From an uncultured bacterium (GTDB taxonomy: Bacteria; Patescibacteriota; Minisyncoccia; Phycocordibacterales; Phycocordibacteraceae), in assembly GCA_903825105.1 (NCBI GenBank), contig CAIJZI010000006.1, forward strand, positions 87,368 to 151,367: a stretch of DNA of 64,000 nt, read 5' to 3'. The notes below the pieces were generated by a model. It was not told where the DNA came from. It worked only from the letters and a program-made list of their open reading frames with translations, and ran no database searches. Below, in pieces: positions 2,184-62,099 of the stretch (position 1 is the stretch's first letter; each line of letters opens with the position of its first letter). The position numbers were made by a program, and so were the translations under genes.

Positions 2184-3140
2184 ATGGATATTGCTGATTT
2201 AAAAAAGATTGCAGAGCGTTCGAGAAGCGGCCGAGAGCTGGGTATCGCCCTCCTTTTTTCCTCGTGTCTTCTCGGGCTTCTTGTTTTTGTCACACCATTT
2301 TTTATTAAACAAGCTCCCGATACAAAAGATGTCGCTGCCGAGCCAGTCGCTCCTTCGCCAGACGCCTATGCGAATGTTCCAATAACAGCCAAAGCCGCCA
2401 TTGTTTATGACATCGCGACAAAAGAAGTTTTATATGCGAAAAATGCCGACGCTCAGCTCCCGCTCGCTTCGCTCACGAAGCTTTTAACCGTATATTCAGC
2501 GCTTAGCGAACTTTCTCCAAACACGCCGATCACCATTCCTGCGAATGTGACGAACATCGACGCTCCGCGCGCCCTTTCTGCTGGGCAAACATTCTCTCTT
2601 GCTGATCTCGCTCGCTTAACCTTAACTGCCTCGCTTAACGACGGCGCTTCGGCTATTGCGATGGCGACAGCCGCGCAGGAGAATCGTTCACAGACAGATA
2701 TGCTCGCCGCCGCAGCAGAATCGCTTAATCTCTCACAGACCTACGCGGTAAATGGAAGTGGTCTGGATATCAATTCTGTCGTTTCTGGGGGGTATGGTTC
2801 GGCGCGTGATATGTCAGTATTGGCCGGCGCTCTTGTCGATAAGGCAGCGGGGATTGCTTATGCGACAACACAGAGTTCTGTTCAAGCCACGGCGACAAAC
2901 GGCACGGTCATTAGTGTTAAAAATACTGACCCGATGATCTCGTCGATCCCGCGCCTCCTTCTTTCTAAAACTGGCTTCACCGATCTCGCCGGCGGGAATC
3001 TCGCTCTCGTCTTTGATAGCGGAATGGGGCATCCGATCGCCGTCATTATTCTTGGTTCGTCTAGCAAAGAGCGGTTTACCGATGGAATGGCACTCGTCGA
3101 CGCCACTCTCGCGCACTTCGCGGGCGTTGCTTCACTATGA
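2184..3140 (+). CDS. D-alanyl-D-alanine carboxypeptidase (serine-type, S11/PBP5-like) with N-terminal membrane anchor
   Basis: SxxK motif LASLTKLLT, further serine-peptidase blocks, N-terminal TM. Confidence 0.7.
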   Translation: MDIADLKKIAERSRSGRELGIALLFSSCLLGLLVFVTPFFIKQAPDTKDVAAEPVAPSPDAYANVPITAKAAIVYDIATKEVLYAKNADAQLPLASLTKLLTVYSALSELSPNTPITIPANVTNIDAPRALSAGQTFSLADLARLTLTASLNDGASAIAMATAAQENRSQTDMLAAAAESLNLSQTYAVNGSGLDINSVVSGGYGSARDMSVLAGALVDKAAGIAYATTQSSVQATATNGTVISVKNTDPMISSIPRLLLSKTGFTDLAGGNLALVFDSGMGHPIAVIILGSSSKERFTDGMALVDATLAHFAGVASL

Positions 3141-22000: not shown

Positions 22001-22276
22001 TTAATGAACGCTATCTCGTACTTTTTCCCAAGGGATAAACTTCTTGCCTTTATTTTCTTTAATGAGCCGAGCGAGCGTACGCCCAGCTTGTTCGTCTTCC
22101 CAAAGTTCCATAAGCTCGTTATACGCATCGGCGCCAAGCACCACATAGCTCTCGCCGCCCTTTCGGTCAGAGATAATGAGCGGATGCTTCTTGGCTTTCG
22201 CGAGATTGCTCGCGAGCTCGGCTCTAAAACCGCTTATGCCGATTGTTTTAGGCACTTTTGTGAATATTGTATTCAT
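22001..22276 (-). CDS. type II antitoxin, Phd/YefM family
   Basis: 91 aa; Phd/YefM-like N-terminus; 2-nt gap to the toxin. Confidence 0.8.
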   Translation of the reverse strand: MNTIFTKVPKTIGISGFRAELASNLAKAKKHPLIISDRKGGESYVVLGADAYNELMELWEDEQAGRTLARLIKENKGKKFIPWEKVRDSVH

Positions 22277-22282
22277 ATTTCT

Positions 22283-22311
22283 ATTGTACGCGTATGTGTA
22301 CAGATATGCAA
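22283..22311 (-). promoter_or_regulatory. sigma-70-like promoter of the phd-relE operon (TTGCAT-17-TACAAT), leaderless
   Basis: On the minus strand: TTGCAT, 17-nt spacer, TACAAT, then 6 nt to the ATG. Confidence 0.6.
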
Positions 22312-22337
22312 CTACCCTTGTGGATAATTTTACATTT

Positions 22338-22358
22338 TACCGAAGTCAGACTTCGGTA
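22338..22358. repeat. palindrome TACCGAAGTC-T-GACTTCGGTA upstream of the TA promoter (member of the TACCGAA..TTCGGTA family)
   Basis: 10-bp perfect arms; related copies at 40868..40883 and 41126..41141. Confidence 0.8.
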
Positions 22359-22361
22359 TTT

Positions 22362-22392
22362 AGTGAGAGCTTGAGAGCCTAAAGCTCTCACT
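22362..22392. repeat. hairpin AGTGAGAGC(TTGAGAGC)CTAAAGCTCTCACT (copy 2, with internal 8-nt duplication)
   Basis: Copy of 21709..21731. Confidence 0.8.
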
Positions 22393-22405
22393 ACCAAAAA
22401 GTAAA

Positions 22406-22437
22406 AAGCCGACGCTCGCGCGTCGGCCTTTTTGTTT
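22406..22437. terminator. rho-independent terminator (copy B of the duplicated terminator), bidirectional
   Basis: aagccgacgc-tcgc-gcgtcggcc then TTTTTGTTTT; A-run on the other side. Confidence 0.75.
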
Positions 22438-22445
22438 TGGGAAGG

Positions 22446-22688
22446 TCAGACCTTCCCATTTCCCGGCTTCTCTTCGGTGTTGACTACATATCGTGAAGGC
22501 TCCGGGAAACCCCCTCTAAATTCAACCGACAAAATGGCCATTCCCGTTACACTAAGATTGCCGTTGGTTGCTTTGAAGGCGGCCAATGCTTCAGGAAACA
22601 ACTGCGACACAAACTGTCCTTCGAATTGTTTCCGAAAAACAAAAACGCCGTGCCCCAAACCTTCAACTACAAGATGGCCATACTCCAT
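22446..22688 (-). CDS. hypothetical small protein
   Basis: 80-aa ORF; no motif recognised; weak. Confidence 0.3.
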   Translation of the reverse strand: MEYGHLVVEGLGHGVFVFRKQFEGQFVSQLFPEALAAFKATNGNLSVTGMAILSVEFRGGFPEPSRYVVNTEEKPGNGKV

Positions 22689-39522: not shown

Positions 39523-40767
39523 TTATGAAATGAGTTCTGCGCGTTCGGCTTTATTTACTTCTCCACTTGCGCGATCCACAATTTCAAATTTCCCCGTATT
39601 CACCGCATCTTTCCCAACCACAATTCTTTTTGGAATACCAAGCAAATCAGAATCAGCGAATTTTTGTCCCGCGCTCATATCGCGATCGTCGTAGAGAACT
39701 TCAACGCCAGCATTTTTTAAATCATTGTAGAGCGCATCGGCGAGTTGCGAAATTTCATCGCCTTCTTTCCCGAGAGAAACAATATGATACTTAAGCGGCG
39801 CGACTGATTCTGGCCAGACGAGCCCTTTATCGTCAGCAAATACCTCAACAATCGTGCCCATCAAGCGCCCGAGGCCGATACCATAACTGCCCATAAAAAC
39901 AGGCGTTGTCTTCCCTTCTGCATCCTTATAAGACAGTCCGAGTGCTTCAGAAAACTTCGTCCCGAGCGTGAAGATGTTGCCTACTTCAATCGCTTTTTCT
40001 TCTTTTAAGTTTTCTTTTTTAATGCCCATTTCTTCATACACTTTTTCATCACCATAGACTTCTTTATTCACTGCTAGTTTTTTTGCATCATCGACATAAA
40101 TAGCGTCTTCTCCCGTGCTACAGACGGTCTGGAATTCGTGTGAATACGGGCTAAATGATCCGCCAGAAGCGTAAGTAAGATAAGTTTTATCGCCGATGCC
40201 AACGCGCGCAAAAATATTTTCATATGCCCGCTTCGCTTTTTCATAAAATGCATCGTGCTCGGCCTTATCTTTTGAAAATGAATACAGATCTTTCATCGTG
40301 AACTCGCGGGTGCGCATAATGCCCGACTTCGCGCGCGTCTCATTTCTAAACTTGTCTTGGAATTGGTAGACATAGCGCGGCAGGTCGCGATACGAAGAGA
40401 TGTGATCGGTCATCAGTCGCGTGAGCGGCTCTTCGTGAGTGAGGCCGAGGCCAACTTCCCCGCCATTTTTAAACGCCGTTTTAAACCACACATCAACCTT
40501 TTCATCACTCCAACGATCAGTCGCCTTCCAGATCTCCGGATCCTGCAGCGCCGAGAGCGACACTTCTTCTCCACCAATCGCGTTCATCTCTTCACGGATA
40601 ATCGCGCGGATCTTCTCAATCACACGCAGACCCAAAGGCAGATAATCATACACACCCGCCATCTCTTTATGAATGTAGCCCGCGCGCACGAGGAGCTGTG
40701 CGTTCTTCGCGACTTCGTCAGCCGGTGCTTCGCGGCGCGTTTTGGTAAAAAGTTCGGATTGCTTCAT
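39523..40767 (-). CDS. proS: prolyl-tRNA synthetase, bacterial-type N-terminus but no INS editing domain
   Basis: FTKTRREAPADEV..AGYI N-terminus; class II motifs; the anticodon-binding domain follows the catalytic core directly. Confidence 0.85.
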   Translation of the reverse strand: MKQSELFTKTRREAPADEVAKNAQLLVRAGYIHKEMAGVYDYLPLGLRVIEKIRAIIREEMNAIGGEEVSLSALQDPEIWKATDRWSDEKVDVWFKTAFKNGGEVGLGLTHEEPLTRLMTDHISSYRDLPRYVYQFQDKFRNETRAKSGIMRTREFTMKDLYSFSKDKAEHDAFYEKAKRAYENIFARVGIGDKTYLTYASGGSFSPYSHEFQTVCSTGEDAIYVDDAKKLAVNKEVYGDEKVYEEMGIKKENLKEEKAIEVGNIFTLGTKFSEALGLSYKDAEGKTTPVFMGSYGIGLGRLMGTIVEVFADDKGLVWPESVAPLKYHIVSLGKEGDEISQLADALYNDLKNAGVEVLYDDRDMSAGQKFADSDLLGIPKRIVVGKDAVNTGKFEIVDRASGEVNKAERAELIS

Positions 40768-40867
40768 ATCGATATAGTATATGCCCCGTAGGCACTCTGC
40801 GCAAAAGGAAAAGCCCCGCAATGAAGCGGGGCGAAATGTGGGACATCGGAAGTCCCACATTTTGTTC

Positions 40868-40883
40868 TACCGAAGTTTCGGTA
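40868..40883. repeat. palindrome TACCGAA-GT-TTCGGTA
   Basis: 7-bp arms; sits immediately upstream of the -35 of the ncRNA promoter. Confidence 0.8.
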
Positions 40884-40887
40884 AATG

Positions 40888-40916
40888 TTGACTTATTTTT
40901 AACAATGGACTATTTT
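40888..40916 (+). promoter_or_regulatory. sigma-70-like promoter TTGACT-17-TATTTT
   Basis: Hexamers with a 17-nt spacer, 6-8 nt before the predicted 5' end. Confidence 0.55.
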
Positions 40917-40922
40917 GTCAGC

Positions 40923-41117
40923 GGAGGTTCAGGCAACGCGAAGGTTCAAATCCACGCGAACCAATGACTCACTTGGCACTCGGCCGCAAATAGGCCTTTA
41001 AGATCCGGCAAGCTGCCGCTACTGGATTGGCCCAGCCCAGTTGCCAAGAAGAGACTTTTCAAAGGTCGCCTGAACTTCCCCAAATCATAGCCGCACTTCG
41101 GTGCGGCTTTTGTTTTT
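40923..41117 (+). ncRNA. candidate structured ncRNA (about 195 nt), class unknown (6S-like length)
   Basis: Promoter upstream; terminator agccgcac-UUCG-gtgcggct then T-run; a 15-bp closing helix pairs the 5' end (gaggttcaggcaac) with the 3' end (gtcgcctgaacttc); internal hairpins. Confidence 0.45.
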
Positions 41118-41125
41118 CATAATTC

Positions 41126-41141
41126 TACCGAAACTTCGGTA
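41126..41141. repeat. palindrome TACCGAA-AC-TTCGGTA
   Basis: Reverse complement of the copy at 40868. Confidence 0.8.
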
Positions 41142-41145
41142 AGTT

Positions 41146-42264
41146 TTACCCAACGATTTTGAAAATATCGTGCGCGGTGACGACGAGCATGAGGATAATA
41201 AGAAAGGCGAAGCCGAGAGCGTTTACCACTTTAAAAACTTTTTGATTTATCGGTCGGCGAATAATGCTTTCAATAATGACGAACAGAAGCCGCCCGCCGT
41301 CGAGCGCGGGGATTGGAATGAGATTTATTAAAGCGAGATTAATAGAAATGACGGCAAAAAAAGAGAGGATGTTCCCGAAACCTTGTGAAGAGTATTCGCC
41401 AACGGCATTCACTATCCCTACCGGCCCCGCGACCTGTGACAAGTCAGCACGAAGCATAAAAGCACTCGCGAAAAAATGTACAAGCCCTTCTGTGGTTAAA
41501 ACGATCGTGCCCCAGGTGAGCGATGCTCCCTCATTTATCGCTTTTAGAAATGATACGGGGACAACGCCGACAGTCGCGACTTCGACGCCGAGCGTGTAGG
41601 TGTTTAATTTTGTCGGAACAACGCCGAGCGCGGGCGTCGCGGTAATTATTTTTTCAATTCCATTGTGTTTAATGGTGAGAGCAATAACTTCGCCATTACT
41701 CGCCGCGACGAATGATGAGAAGCTTGTTGTATCAATAAAATGCCCCTCGACTCCGCTCTGGGCAAACCATTCACCATTCGAATATTTCGCGCTTAAAATA
41801 GAATCACCCGCAGTGAGCCCGGCGCGCGCAGCAGGAGTGTTTGGCAAGACATTTGCGATAGCGAGCTCAACATTTTTAGCACCAGCGATTTCATTTTGAG
41901 AAAGTGCTCGCGGCGTCCCAGCGACAAGCGCACTCGTGATAAGAATGTAGGCGAAGACGAGATTCATCGTGATGCCGGCTATGAGAACTACGGCCTGCGC
42001 GAAACGGTTTTTTGAAGTGAATGCTCGCGGATCCTTTTTCTCCGGTTCAGAGTCTTCACCAAATATTTTCACGAATCCACCAAAAGGCAGCCAGTTAAGC
42101 GAAATAATTGTCTCGCCGATCTTCCCTATCTTCGCGATGCGCGGCGGATAGCCGAGACCAAATTCATCGACACGCATCTTCGCTACCTTCGCCGCAACAA
42201 AATGCCCCACCTCGTGCACAAGGATAAGCACGACGATGCCAACAATAAAAATTAAAATATTCAT
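41146..42264 (-). CDS. rseP: site-2 protease RseP-like zinc metalloprotease (M50) with PDZ domain
   Basis: HEVGHFVAAK (HExxH), PDZ region, multiple TMs, LDGG motif. Confidence 0.85.
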   Translation of the reverse strand: MNILIFIVGIVVLILVHEVGHFVAAKVAKMRVDEFGLGYPPRIAKIGKIGETIISLNWLPFGGFVKIFGEDSEPEKKDPRAFTSKNRFAQAVVLIAGITMNLVFAYILITSALVAGTPRALSQNEIAGAKNVELAIANVLPNTPAARAGLTAGDSILSAKYSNGEWFAQSGVEGHFIDTTSFSSFVAASNGEVIALTIKHNGIEKIITATPALGVVPTKLNTYTLGVEVATVGVVPVSFLKAINEGASLTWGTIVLTTEGLVHFFASAFMLRADLSQVAGPVGIVNAVGEYSSQGFGNILSFFAVISINLALINLIPIPALDGGRLLFVIIESIIRRPINQKVFKVVNALGFAFLIILMLVVTAHDIFKIVG

Positions 42265-56767: not shown

Positions 56768-57042
56768 ACTAGAAGTGTACAGGATAAATGATGCGTCTTG
56801 TAGAAACCTTGGAAATCTTCGTCGAAATTTTCTGGATTTGTCGGAAATTTTTGGATAAAAAATTTCCGCCCGAATTCAATTCCATCGGAATCGTCCGGAT
56901 GAGACGATTCCGATGCGAATTCAAAAACAATAAAAGCTGTCCGTGCGGACAGCTTTTATCGTTTTTGAATTCGGCTGGCCTCCTCGGTCTCGTACTTTCT
57001 ACCGTCAAGCCCCCGTTGGGTTTCCTGGCGGCATCTCCAAGT

Positions 57043-61850: not shown

Positions 61851-62099
61851 GTTGAATTATCGTTATGGATAAATCCGGGTCGGCGGGTAGCACAAAACCC
61901 GCCACCAGGAGCCCTTGCGGGCCTATAGGAGTTTCCCCCTATAACGCATCGAACGCCCTGATGACGGGTTTTCTAGGTTCGATGCGATTTGCGACCATGC
62001 CATTGACCGAAGTCACTGGTTTAGGTCGGTACTAGCCAAAGCTAGTACCTTAAAGATATCTCACTTTAGGGGTTCTGCGAAGACCTTGCTTGAAGACAA

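What the first reader, a model, noticed from the sequence alone, without database searches (positions are those of the whole stretch)
40888..41117. Candidate stand-alone structured ncRNA (about 195 nt) between rseP and proS, antisense to local transcription
On the plus strand a TTGACT-17-TATTTT promoter is followed, about 190 nt later, by a classic intrinsic terminator: a GC stem with a UUCG tetraloop and a U-run. The predicted ends pair into a 15-bp closing helix, 40925..40938 with 41064..41078, with one GU and one mismatch. Several internal hairpins are visible, including ggccgcaaataggcc and cggcaagctgccg. The two flanking genes are both on the minus strand, so this is not a leader. The length and end-to-end pairing are reminiscent of 6S RNA, but I cannot assign a class, and I looked for SRP, tmRNA and RNase P consensus blocks without success.
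Basis: partly seen in the sequence, partly recalled or inferred. Interest (0 to 1): 0.65.

Follow-up and report, generated by a model that had tools for sequence, protein, structure and literature searches.

The report
Orphan candidate small RNA gene
Between two housekeeping genes of an uncultured Patescibacteria (CPR) bacterium lies a roughly 260-330-base lineage-specific insert that looks like a self-contained gene for a folded, about 195-nt non-coding RNA, but no related sequence was found anywhere, so neither its reality nor its function can be confirmed by comparison.

Summary
There is a TTGACT-17-TATTTT promoter-like site and a 12-bp (extendable to 15) end-to-end helix that begins exactly at the expected transcription start. 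A strong UUCG-loop intrinsic terminator points the "wrong" way relative to rseP and proS, which are both on the minus strand. Together these exceed chance and give a coherent plus-strand transcription unit of about 194 nt.

No class can be assigned. Rfam gives nothing, even at E<=10: no 6S, tRNA, tmRNA, SRP, RNase P, Y-like RNA or riboswitch. There is no credible ORF.

The element is an orphan. In 69 related Paceibacteria loci the rseP-proS spacer is either about 45 nt (just the proS promoter) or filled with unrelated inserts. A covariance model, BLAST and pattern scans found no homologue, so covariation cannot be tested. Both strands fold about equally well, and this genome has other hairpin-rich spacers.

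The module is bracketed by two copies of a palindrome seen only in this genome so far (TACCGAA-NN-TTCGGTA), and terminators insulate it on both sides.

Best reading: a recently acquired, independently transcribed structured sRNA gene. A 6S-like RNA-polymerase decoy is only a weak specific guess. Interest is modest.

The parts
40776..40804 (-). proS promoter on the minus strand: TTGCGC (40804-40799), 17 nt, TATACT (40781-40776). It lies 8 nt upstream of the proS ATG (40767), so the proS mRNA is nearly leaderless. This is context marking the ancestral part of the spacer.
   Evidence: Read. The same TTGCxx-17-TATACT block lies directly before proS in relatives.
40803..40832 (-). Strong minus-strand intrinsic terminator 'C': GCCCCGC-TTCATT-GCGGGGC followed by TTTTCCTTTT. 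It insulates the proS promoter from read-through.
40834..40862 (.). Hairpin 'B': AAATGTGGGAC...GTCCCACATTT. On the plus strand it is followed by ATTTTGTTCT, so it would stop plus-strand transcription arriving from the left.
   Evidence: Inverted repeat I2; folds.
40865..40889 (.). Left copy of the flanking repeat, TTCTACCGAAGTTTCGGTAAATGTT. Its core is the palindrome TACCGAA-GT-TTCGGTA (40868-40883).
   Evidence: Direct repeat D1 (21 of 25 identical) and the perfect 16-nt inverted repeat I1. The motif occurs only 3 times in the window and 0 times in the 106 other loci then held.
40888..40916 (+). Promoter-like site TTGACT-17-TATTTT. The predicted transcription start is about 40923.
   Evidence: Sigma-70-like promoters are seen upstream of tRNA-Asn and proS in this genome.
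40923..41079 (+). Body of the predicted RNA. It comprises closing helix P1 (40923-40934 / 41068-41079), a side hairpin CGCG-AAGGUUCAAAUCCA-CGCG (40937-40958) carrying a T-loop-like GGUUCAAAUCC, a loosely paired central region (40959-40971 / 41049-41067), and an irregular apical rod (40972-41048).
40921..40948 (+). Direct repeat GCGGAGGTTCA (40921-40931) and GCGAAGGTTCA (40938-40948). The second copy can replace the first as pairing partner of the 3' strand of P1.
   Evidence: Repeat D2; constrained refolding.
41089..41117 (+). Intrinsic terminator: an 8-bp GC-rich stem, a UUCG loop and UUUUGUUUUU. On the minus strand the tail is only UAUGAUUU, so it is at best a weak bidirectional terminator for rseP.
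41123..41147 (.). Right copy of the flanking repeat, TTCTACCGAAACTTCGGTAAGTTTT. It abuts and overlaps by 2 nt the rseP stop codon (41146-41148).

Best explanation
The region is a lineage-specific insert of about 260-330 nt in the normally ~45-nt rseP-proS spacer. It carries a self-contained, insulated transcription unit on the plus strand.

How it is proposed to work. A sigma-70-type promoter (40888-40916) starts an RNA at about 40923. The first 12 nt of that RNA pair with nt 41068-41079, closing an irregular rod about 157 nt long. Transcription stops at the UUCG-loop terminator (41089-41117), giving an RNA of about 194 nt that has no ORF. The unit is convergent with rseP and divergent from proS. 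Terminator-like hairpins lie on both sides of it, and it is bracketed by two copies of a palindrome found only in this genome among the sequences held here.

What is shown and what is inferred. The sequence signals, their mutual register, the predicted fold, and the absence of the region from relatives are shown. That the RNA is actually made, and that it is functional, is inferred.

Most likely mode of action (inferred, weak). The RNA is a stable protein-binding RNA rather than a base-pairing sRNA, because nearly all of it is predicted to be paired and its two ends are locked together. The most specific guess is a 6S-like RNA-polymerase decoy. Its shape fits: a closing stem, a loose central region of about 37 + 19 nt, and an apical stem. 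It also has an alternative helix between the 3' strand of P1 and the repeated GAAGGUUC in the 5' central region, which resembles the 'central bubble collapse helix' of B. subtilis 6S-1.

My estimates: about 0.5 that this is a real independent transcript, and about 0.1 that it works like 6S.
For: - The promoter, the start of the helix and the terminator are in mutual register.
- The long-range helix is reached by only 9 of 1000 shuffles.
- The fold has z = -4.6.
- Strong terminator-like sites in this window are almost confined to intergenic DNA. This one points plus although both neighbours are on the minus strand.
- A plus-strand terminator-like hairpin lies just upstream (40834-40862). Any plus-strand transcript ending at 41117 must therefore start in between, where the only promoter-like site is found.
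- There is no ORF with a ribosome-binding site and no protein similarity.
- Close relatives carry analogous self-contained opposite-strand units at exactly this site, each with a promoter, a small gene and a terminator. L084/L085 hold a 34-aa peptide gene and L107 a 150-aa gene. The site therefore accepts such cassettes.
- 6S-like points: the rod shape, the refolding when the 5' strand of P1 is blocked, and the description of 6S architecture and the collapse helix in PMC8876501.
Against: - There is no homologue anywhere, so there is no covariation and no evidence of selection on the structure.
- The reverse strand folds slightly better: core -69.7 against -62.7 kcal/mol, with similar numbers of G-U pairs. 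The helices are therefore equally compatible with a DNA-level palindrome or a minus-strand RNA.
- The -10 hexamer TATTTT is mediocre, and promoter-like sites are common by chance.
- Other spacers in this genome (22.25-22.46 kb and 56.8-57.0 kb) are at least as structured.
- Against a 6S-like role specifically: the Rfam 6S models give no hit at E<=10, the closing stem is short at 12-15 bp, and a conserved housekeeping RNA would not be expected on a recent insert missing from all relatives at this site.
Confidence: 0.5

Rival explanations
1. Hairpin-rich spacer or insertion relic with no dedicated RNA product. The spacer acquired foreign or duplicated DNA, and what remains is a stack of palindromes and terminators that merely separates rseP from proS. 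The promoter-like hexamers are coincidental.
For: - The genome has other spacers with nested palindromes and stacked hairpins that are at least as stable.
- The rseP-proS spacer is highly variable in relatives. Of 69 loci, 25 have 100 nt or less and the rest hold unrelated fillers from about 116 to about 2280 nt.
- Both strands fold equally well.
- Nothing is conserved.
Against: - Close relatives manage with no terminator at all between rseP and proS, so insulation is not needed unless something is transcribed here.
- The imperfect, bulged long-range rod, whose closing helix starts at +1 of a well-spaced promoter and ends just before a strong plus-oriented terminator, is not what a simple terminator stack looks like.
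Confidence: 0.25
2. The functional molecule is the minus strand. It would be a structured 3' UTR of rseP, or a 3'-UTR-derived sRNA, that runs from the rseP stop codon to the strong minus-strand terminator at 40832-40813.
For: - No efficient minus-strand terminator lies between the rseP stop codon and 40832.
- The minus strand has the lower free energy and the higher rank among window segments, about 13 of 1276.
- The two flanking palindromes can close the whole region as a 19-bp helix in that transcript.
Against: - This reading leaves the plus-oriented promoter and the U-run of the 41089-41108 terminator unexplained.
- That hairpin would probably stop part of the rseP transcripts before the structured body.
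- Relatives have no such 3' UTR.
Confidence: 0.12
3. A small non-autonomous mobile element (MITE- or REP-bounded cassette, or the remnant of an integrated element) whose ends are the two TACCGAA-NN-TTCGGTA palindromes. Any RNA it makes is a by-product.
For: - A perfect 16-nt inverted repeat, which also reads as a 21-of-25 direct repeat, brackets the module.
- A third copy of the palindrome lies in another spacer at 22339-22357, and there are none in about 700 kb of relatives.
- Relatives L002 and L023 show insertions at the rseP 3' end with target duplication.
Against: - There is no second copy of the 233-nt body in the 64 kb, in the relatives, or in the phage and plasmid collections, and short-pattern scans of viral and metagenome contigs gave only chance matches.
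- There is no clear target-site duplication outside the inverted repeats.
- There is no transposase or integrase nearby.
- The third palindrome has a different stem and loop length, so these look like generic hairpins rather than defined transposon ends.
Confidence: 0.1

Closest known systems
6S RNA (ssrS; Rfam RF00013 and relatives)
   Same: - The length is about 160-195 nt and the gene has its own promoter.
- The 5' and 3' ends pair into a closing stem.
- A loosely paired central region separates the closing stem from an irregular apical stem capped by a small loop.
- The 3' strand of the closing helix can re-pair with the distal 5' central region when the 5' strand is occupied. This matches the central-bubble-collapse helix described for B. 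subtilis 6S-1 (PMC8876501).
   Different: - The Rfam 6S models give no match even at E<=10.
- The closing stem is only 12-15 bp.
- The 5' central region carries a 22-nt hairpin with a T-loop-like loop.
- The gene sits on a lineage-specific insert absent from relatives, whereas 6S is normally a conserved, vertically inherited gene.
- RNA-polymerase binding and pRNA synthesis are untested.
Orphan, species-specific bacterial sRNA genes defined only by a promoter, a stable fold and an intrinsic terminator
   Same: It is a stand-alone intergenic unit, not a leader. It has a canonical terminator, no ORF and no Rfam family.
   Different: Such sRNAs are usually less completely paired and have an exposed seed region. 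This one is almost entirely helical with locked ends, which points to protein binding rather than base-pairing.
REP / MITE-like palindromic intergenic repeats
   Same: Copies of a short palindrome found only in this genome among the sequences held flank the module, and the palindrome recurs in another spacer.
   Different: The 233-nt body is single-copy in all the sequence available. There is no target-site duplication and no associated transposase.
tRNA-like modules (tmRNA tRNA-like domain, YrlA/Y-RNA-like)
   Same: A GGUUCAAAUCC loop matches my recollection of the tRNA T-loop consensus (from memory, not tested here). The closing helix is followed by C-CCA (41079-41082) if the RNA starts at 40924.
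   Different: - ARAGORN finds no tRNA or tmRNA here, and Rfam finds no tRNA, tmRNA or Y-like match.
- The T-like stem has only 2 bp.
- The hairpin sits next to the 5' strand of the closing helix, not the 3' strand.
- There is no tag reading frame.

Membership tests
6S RNA | Match to the Rfam covariance models for 6S (RF00013 and the other 6S-type families) | tested here: not met
   cmscan of 40700-41250 and of 40918-41088, both strands, at E<=10, lists no 6S family.
6S RNA | Rod-shaped RNA of about 200 nt: a closing stem formed by the 5' and 3' ends, a central bubble, and an irregular apical stem (PMC8876501) | tested here: inconclusive
   The single-sequence MFE and ensemble fold has this outline. 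It is a prediction without covariation. The closing stem is short, and the central region is partly paired in the MFE.
6S RNA | Binds sigma-70-type RNA polymerase holoenzyme and templates pRNA synthesis, followed by refolding and release | not testable with these tools
   The only in-silico hint is that blocking 40923-40934 makes the 3' strand pair with 40942-40948.
6S RNA | Conserved across related genomes | tested here: not met
   There is no homologue at the syntenic site in 69 relatives, nor within the flanking sequence fetched around proS or rseP in 85 loci. Other positions in those genomes could not be searched.
tRNA / tmRNA | Cloverleaf, or tRNA-like domain plus tag ORF, detectable by ARAGORN or Rfam | tested here: not met
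   ARAGORN finds only tRNA-Glu and tRNA-Asn elsewhere in the window. There is no RF00005 or tmRNA hit in the region.
SRP RNA / RNase P RNA | Match to the Rfam models | tested here: not met
T-box or other cis-regulatory leader of proS | Lies between the promoter and the regulated gene on the same strand, and matches a riboswitch or T-box model | tested here: not met
   The conserved proS promoter (40804-40776, minus strand) lies downstream of the element and of a strong terminator. There is no Rfam cis-regulatory hit.
MITE / small non-autonomous transposon | Terminal inverted repeats, a target-site duplication and multiple copies | tested here: inconclusive
   A 16-nt perfect inverted repeat is present. 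No target-site duplication was recognised, and there is no second copy of the body in the window or anywhere else searched. The rest of the genome was not available.
Small protein gene (like the inserts in L084 and L107) | An ORF with a start codon and ribosome-binding site downstream of the promoter | tested here: not met
   The plus-strand ORFs are 28-48 aa. They either start upstream of the predicted transcription start or lack a ribosome-binding site. tblastn of all six-frame peptides finds nothing.

The most novel reading that the evidence does not exclude
A previously undescribed class of structured RNA in Patescibacteria/CPR, carried on a small insulated cassette that lands in the rseP-proS spacer and acts as a 6S-like or otherwise protein-sequestering RNA. 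The T-loop-bearing side hairpin and a built-in conformational switch, in which the two GCGRAGGUUCA copies compete for the same 3' strand, would be its functional core. If so, CPR genomes would exchange regulatory RNA genes as mobile cassettes.
Probability: 0.07. Interest if true: 0.6.

Novelty: new member of a known kind. Interest (0 to 1): 0.3.

Why it matters
Almost nothing is known about regulatory RNAs in the reduced genomes of Patescibacteria (CPR). My two full-text searches pairing 6S RNA with Patescibacteria or with "candidate phyla radiation" turned up nothing relevant. If this unit is expressed, it would be a clean example of a lineage-specific structured RNA gene in such an organism. 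It would also be a candidate for the missing RNA-polymerase-regulating RNA.

As it stands, it is a single-sequence prediction without comparative support. It has practical value mainly as a target for metatranscriptome mapping. It also points to the rseP-proS spacer as a recurrent landing site for small opposite-strand genes in this clade.

Tried and rejected
- **Rfam.** I ran it at gathering thresholds on the whole window, and at E<=10 on 40700-41250 and on 40918-41088. Only noise came back (STnc250 at E=0.026 covers the two hairpins left of the element; the other hits are terminator-driven).
- **tRNA/tmRNA.** ARAGORN finds none here.
- **Synteny in relatives.** I fetched 80 genome loci by ProS and 8 loci by the closest RseP proteins (69-72% identity). 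None carries the element, by blastn (on the 80 ProS-derived loci) or by a single-sequence covariance model (162 positions, 50 bp, on those 80 plus five of the RseP-derived loci; L107-L109 were fetched later and were not searched with either). The closest relatives have spacers of 18-45 nt.
- **Metagenome pattern scan (AAGGTTCAAATCCACGCG).** It gave 18 hits, all unrelated coding DNA. One was a 25-of-27 match inside an XRE-type HTH gene (L101). I checked it as a possible pseudogene origin and rejected it, because there is no similarity beyond 27 nt and no matching reading frame.
- **Viral-contig scans.** Four patterns gave either nothing or chance matches.
- **Phage and plasmid collections.** blastn in distant mode found no match.
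- **Hidden small ORF or decayed gene.** There is no ORF with a ribosome-binding site, and tblastn of six-frame peptides against all loci shows nothing significant.
- **Tandem repeats or iterons.** TRF finds none.
- **Strand assignment from G-U pairs or energy.** This was uninformative: 3 against 4 G-U pairs, and -62.7 against -69.7 kcal/mol.
- **Flanking palindrome as a transcription-factor operator.** Rejected, because the third copy has a different half-site spacing (9-3-9 against 7-2-7).
- **L043 spacer RNA as a reduced RNase P RNA.** It looked like one by eye, but Rfam gives nothing at E<=1, so I did not pursue it.
- **Literature.** Full-text searches for 6S or structured RNAs in Patescibacteria/CPR found nothing relevant.
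- **Source record.** The exact-sequence look-up of the window's own RseP failed, so the source contig could not be extended.

Full report
**Organism and setting.** The window comes from a Patescibacteria/CPR bacterium of the Paceibacteria (Kaiser-/Nomurabacteria-like) group. The best ProS matches in 185,579 species genomes are MAGs of that group, at no more than 77% amino-acid identity. The closest RseP proteins among 5.8 billion clusters, apart from the identical source sequence, are 69-72% identical. On the minus strand the gene order is holB - frr - rseP (41146-42264) - spacer - proS (39523-40767) - mreB. NCBIfam confirms rseP (TIGR00054, 213 bits) and proS (TIGR00409, 402 bits, cutoff 306.7). 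The spacer is 40768-41145, 378 nt.

**Checking the observation.**
- The scan tool finds TTGACT-17-TATTTT at 40888-40916 on the plus strand. It also finds a plus-strand terminator, AGCCGCAC-UUCG-GUGCGGCU at 41089-41108, followed by TTTGTTTTTC.
- The end-to-end helix is 40923-40937 / 41065-41079. It has 13 Watson-Crick pairs, 1 G-U and 1 mismatch. Its contiguous 12-bp core has pair probabilities above 0.98 in the ensemble.
- Only 9 of 1000 dinucleotide shuffles of the element contain a long-range helix of that quality.
- The helix begins at the seventh base after the -10 hexamer and ends nine bases before the terminator stem. Promoter, fold and terminator are therefore in register.
- The 200-nt stretch 40918-41117 folds at -78.3 kcal/mol, z = -4.6.
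- Using a stricter rule (stem of at least 7 bp, at least 5 G-C pairs, at least 6 T in 8), there are only about a dozen strong terminator-like sites in the 64 kb. Nearly all lie in intergenic DNA. This one is a credible terminator, and it is oriented against both neighbouring genes.
- Promoters of the sigma-70 type are evidently used here: TTGCAG-16-TAGAAT before tRNA-Asn, and TTGCGC-17-TATACT before proS.

I regard the observation as confirmed and jointly beyond chance. The promoter match taken alone is weak, since 3 were found against 1.5 expected in 1.4 kb.

**Fuller anatomy of the spacer.** Reading left to right on the plus strand:
- The proS promoter (minus strand, 40804-40776) sits 8 nt from the ATG.
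- A strong minus-strand terminator follows (40832-40813 plus a T-run).
- A second hairpin (40834-40862) is followed on the plus strand by ATTTTGTTCT.
- The left copy of a 25-nt repeat is at 40865-40889.
- Next come the plus-strand promoter, the RNA body and the plus-strand terminator.
- The right copy of the repeat (41123-41147) touches the rseP stop codon.

The repeat core, TACCGAA-GT-TTCGGTA and TACCGAA-AC-TTCGGTA, is a perfect 16-nt inverted repeat and also a 21-of-25 direct repeat. A related palindrome, TACCGAAGT-CAG-ACTTCGGTA, occurs once more at 22339-22357 in another hairpin-rich spacer. It never occurs in about 700 kb of related and other loci. It is therefore a hairpin found only in this genome among the sequences held. 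Its variable stem and loop lengths argue against a protein operator. The plus-strand unit is insulated on both sides by terminators.

**Predicted RNA.** From 40923 to 41116 (194 nt) the MFE structure has the following parts:
- P1, 12 bp.
- A side hairpin, CGCG-AAGGUUCAAAUCCA-CGCG (40937-40958, probability about 0.8), whose loop contains a T-loop-like GGUUCAAAUCC.
- Three weak 3-bp helices bridging a central region of about 37 nt on the 5' side and about 19 nt on the 3' side.
- An irregular apical rod of 27 bp (40972-41048).
- The terminator.

An 11-nt direct repeat, GCGGAGGTTCA at 40921-40931 and GCGAAGGTTCA at 40938-40948, means the 3' strand of P1 has two possible partners. When the 5' strand of P1 is blocked in silico, the 3' strand pairs with the second copy. 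No plus-strand ORF has both a plausible start and a ribosome-binding site.

**Strand.** Thermodynamics does not decide it. The reverse complement of the core folds at -69.7 kcal/mol against -62.7, with 4 against 3 G-U pairs. The minus strand also ranks higher among all 200-nt windows, about 13 of 1276. The assignment to the plus strand rests on the transcription signals only.

**Class.** No known family fits.
- Rfam 15 finds only LOOT RNA and two tRNAs elsewhere in the window.
- In the spacer, at E<=10 on both strands, there is only noise driven by terminator hairpins. No 6S, SRP, RNase P, tmRNA, Y-like RNA, T-box or riboswitch appears.
- ARAGORN finds nothing there.

**Comparative evidence.**
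- In 69 related loci where rseP is followed by proS, the spacer is 100 nt or less in 25 (mode about 45 nt). In the rest it ranges from about 116 to about 2280 nt and is filled with mutually unrelated sequence.
- The closest relatives (L081, L082, L108; RseP 69-72% identical) have only the proS promoter directly after the rseP stop codon. That is the likely ancestral state.
- Two other close relatives carry different but architecturally analogous opposite-strand units at the same site. L084/L085 hold TTGACA-17-TATACT, a 34-aa hydrophobic ORF and a terminator. L107 holds a TTGACA promoter, a 150-aa gene and a terminator abutting the rseP stop.
- blastn and a covariance model built from the window sequence with its predicted structure (R1) find no homologue in 617 kb of related loci or elsewhere in the window.
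- blastn against the phage and plasmid collections finds nothing.
- The one metagenome pattern scan gave 18 unrelated coding hits, including a 25-of-27 coincidence in an HTH gene. The viral scans gave chance matches only.

The element is an orphan. The covariation test that would validate the structure cannot be performed with the data reachable here.

**Interpretation.** The most economical explanation is a recently acquired, self-contained and insulated plus-strand gene for a structured RNA of about 194 nt. It was inserted into a spacer that has repeatedly accepted small opposite-strand genes in this clade. I put about 0.5 on it being a genuine independent transcript.

Its almost fully helical, end-locked shape suggests a protein-binding RNA. 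The specific 6S-like idea has two points in its favour: the rod / central region / apical stem outline, and a built-in alternative helix analogous to the central-bubble-collapse helix of B. subtilis 6S-1 (PMC8876501). Against it are the failure of the Rfam 6S models, the short closing stem, and the location on a lineage-specific insert. I give it about 0.1.

The rivals are:
- A functionless hairpin-rich insertion relic. This genome has other spacers at least as structured.
- A minus-strand rseP 3'-UTR structure.
- A REP- or MITE-bounded mobile cassette.

**Verdict.** The element is a plausible orphan sRNA gene of no known family, with no comparative or expression evidence. It is of modest interest, mainly as a target for transcriptome data and for a proper covariance-model search of Patescibacteria genomes.

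Noticed in passing
L001-L109, the spacer between rseP and proS (in the ProS-derived loci, the region just before the proS start, e.g. position 3001): In Paceibacteria the rseP-proS spacer is a recurrent insertion site. Of 69 loci, 25 have about 45 nt holding only the proS promoter. The others hold unrelated fillers from about 116 to about 2280 nt, several of them small opposite-strand genes with their own promoter and terminator.
   Followed up: partly
L084 3599-3880 and L085 1263-1544 (minus strand of the locus): A TTGACA-17-TATACT promoter, a 34-aa hydrophobic ORF (MKEALKLLKVFGWLALAVALLLLLTHLASMHPIR) and an intrinsic terminator lie antisense between rseP and proS. The unit looks like a small membrane peptide or a type-I-toxin-like gene.
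   Followed up: no
L043 about 2623-3001 (minus strand of the locus; Vogelbacteria MAG): At the same site and in the same antisense orientation lies an AT-rich promoter, then about 270 nt of GC-rich, structured-looking sequence, then a strong terminator (GCGGGCAGTTTGCGCAAGCAAACTGCCCGTCTTTTTTT). Some stretches look vaguely RNase-P-like by eye, but Rfam gives no hit at E<=1. It may be another unclassified ncRNA.
   Followed up: partly
L001, L002, L003, the spacer upstream of proS: A shared element of about 110 nt (...CAGATGCGAGGCGCG...CGTACTTCCGAGGTACG...CCCGCAACAAAGCAGATG...), flanked by inverted repeats, is present in three relatives. It has no Rfam match at gathering thresholds.
   Followed up: no
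L001, L004, L005, L008, between the proS -10 box and the proS ATG: A MITE-like insert of about 100 nt has terminal inverted repeats CCCGTTAGAAGTC / GACTTCTAACGGG and an apparent CTCAT duplication. It sits inside what is otherwise a nearly leaderless proS start.
   Followed up: no
L002 and L023, the spacer upstream of proS: An insert carries an ORF of about 95 aa (MITDADITKLK...) together with a duplicated copy, about 45 nt long, of the rseP 3' end. This indicates integration at the rseP 3' end with target duplication.
   Followed up: no
window 61910-62027 (minus strand): LOOT RNA (RF03000), 78.8 bits, a full-length match.
   Followed up: no
window 56800-57000 and 22250-22460: These are the two most strongly folding non-Rfam stretches of the window. 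Their GC-corrected MFE z-scores are -5.5/-6.3 and -4.5/-5.1 on the two strands. They consist of nested, near-perfect palindromes and stacked terminators in spacers. The 22.3-kb region holds the third copy of the TACCGAAG...CTTCGGTA hairpin.
   Followed up: partly
window 40767-40804 (minus strand) and the equivalent positions in L081, L082, L107: The conserved proS promoter places its -10 box (TATACT) only about 8 nt before the ATG. proS is therefore probably translated from a leaderless or nearly leaderless mRNA in this clade.
   Followed up: no
L108 1465-2429: In one close relative, two ORFs, one with a weak reverse-transcriptase (RVT_1) hit, are inserted between frr and rseP.
   Followed up: no
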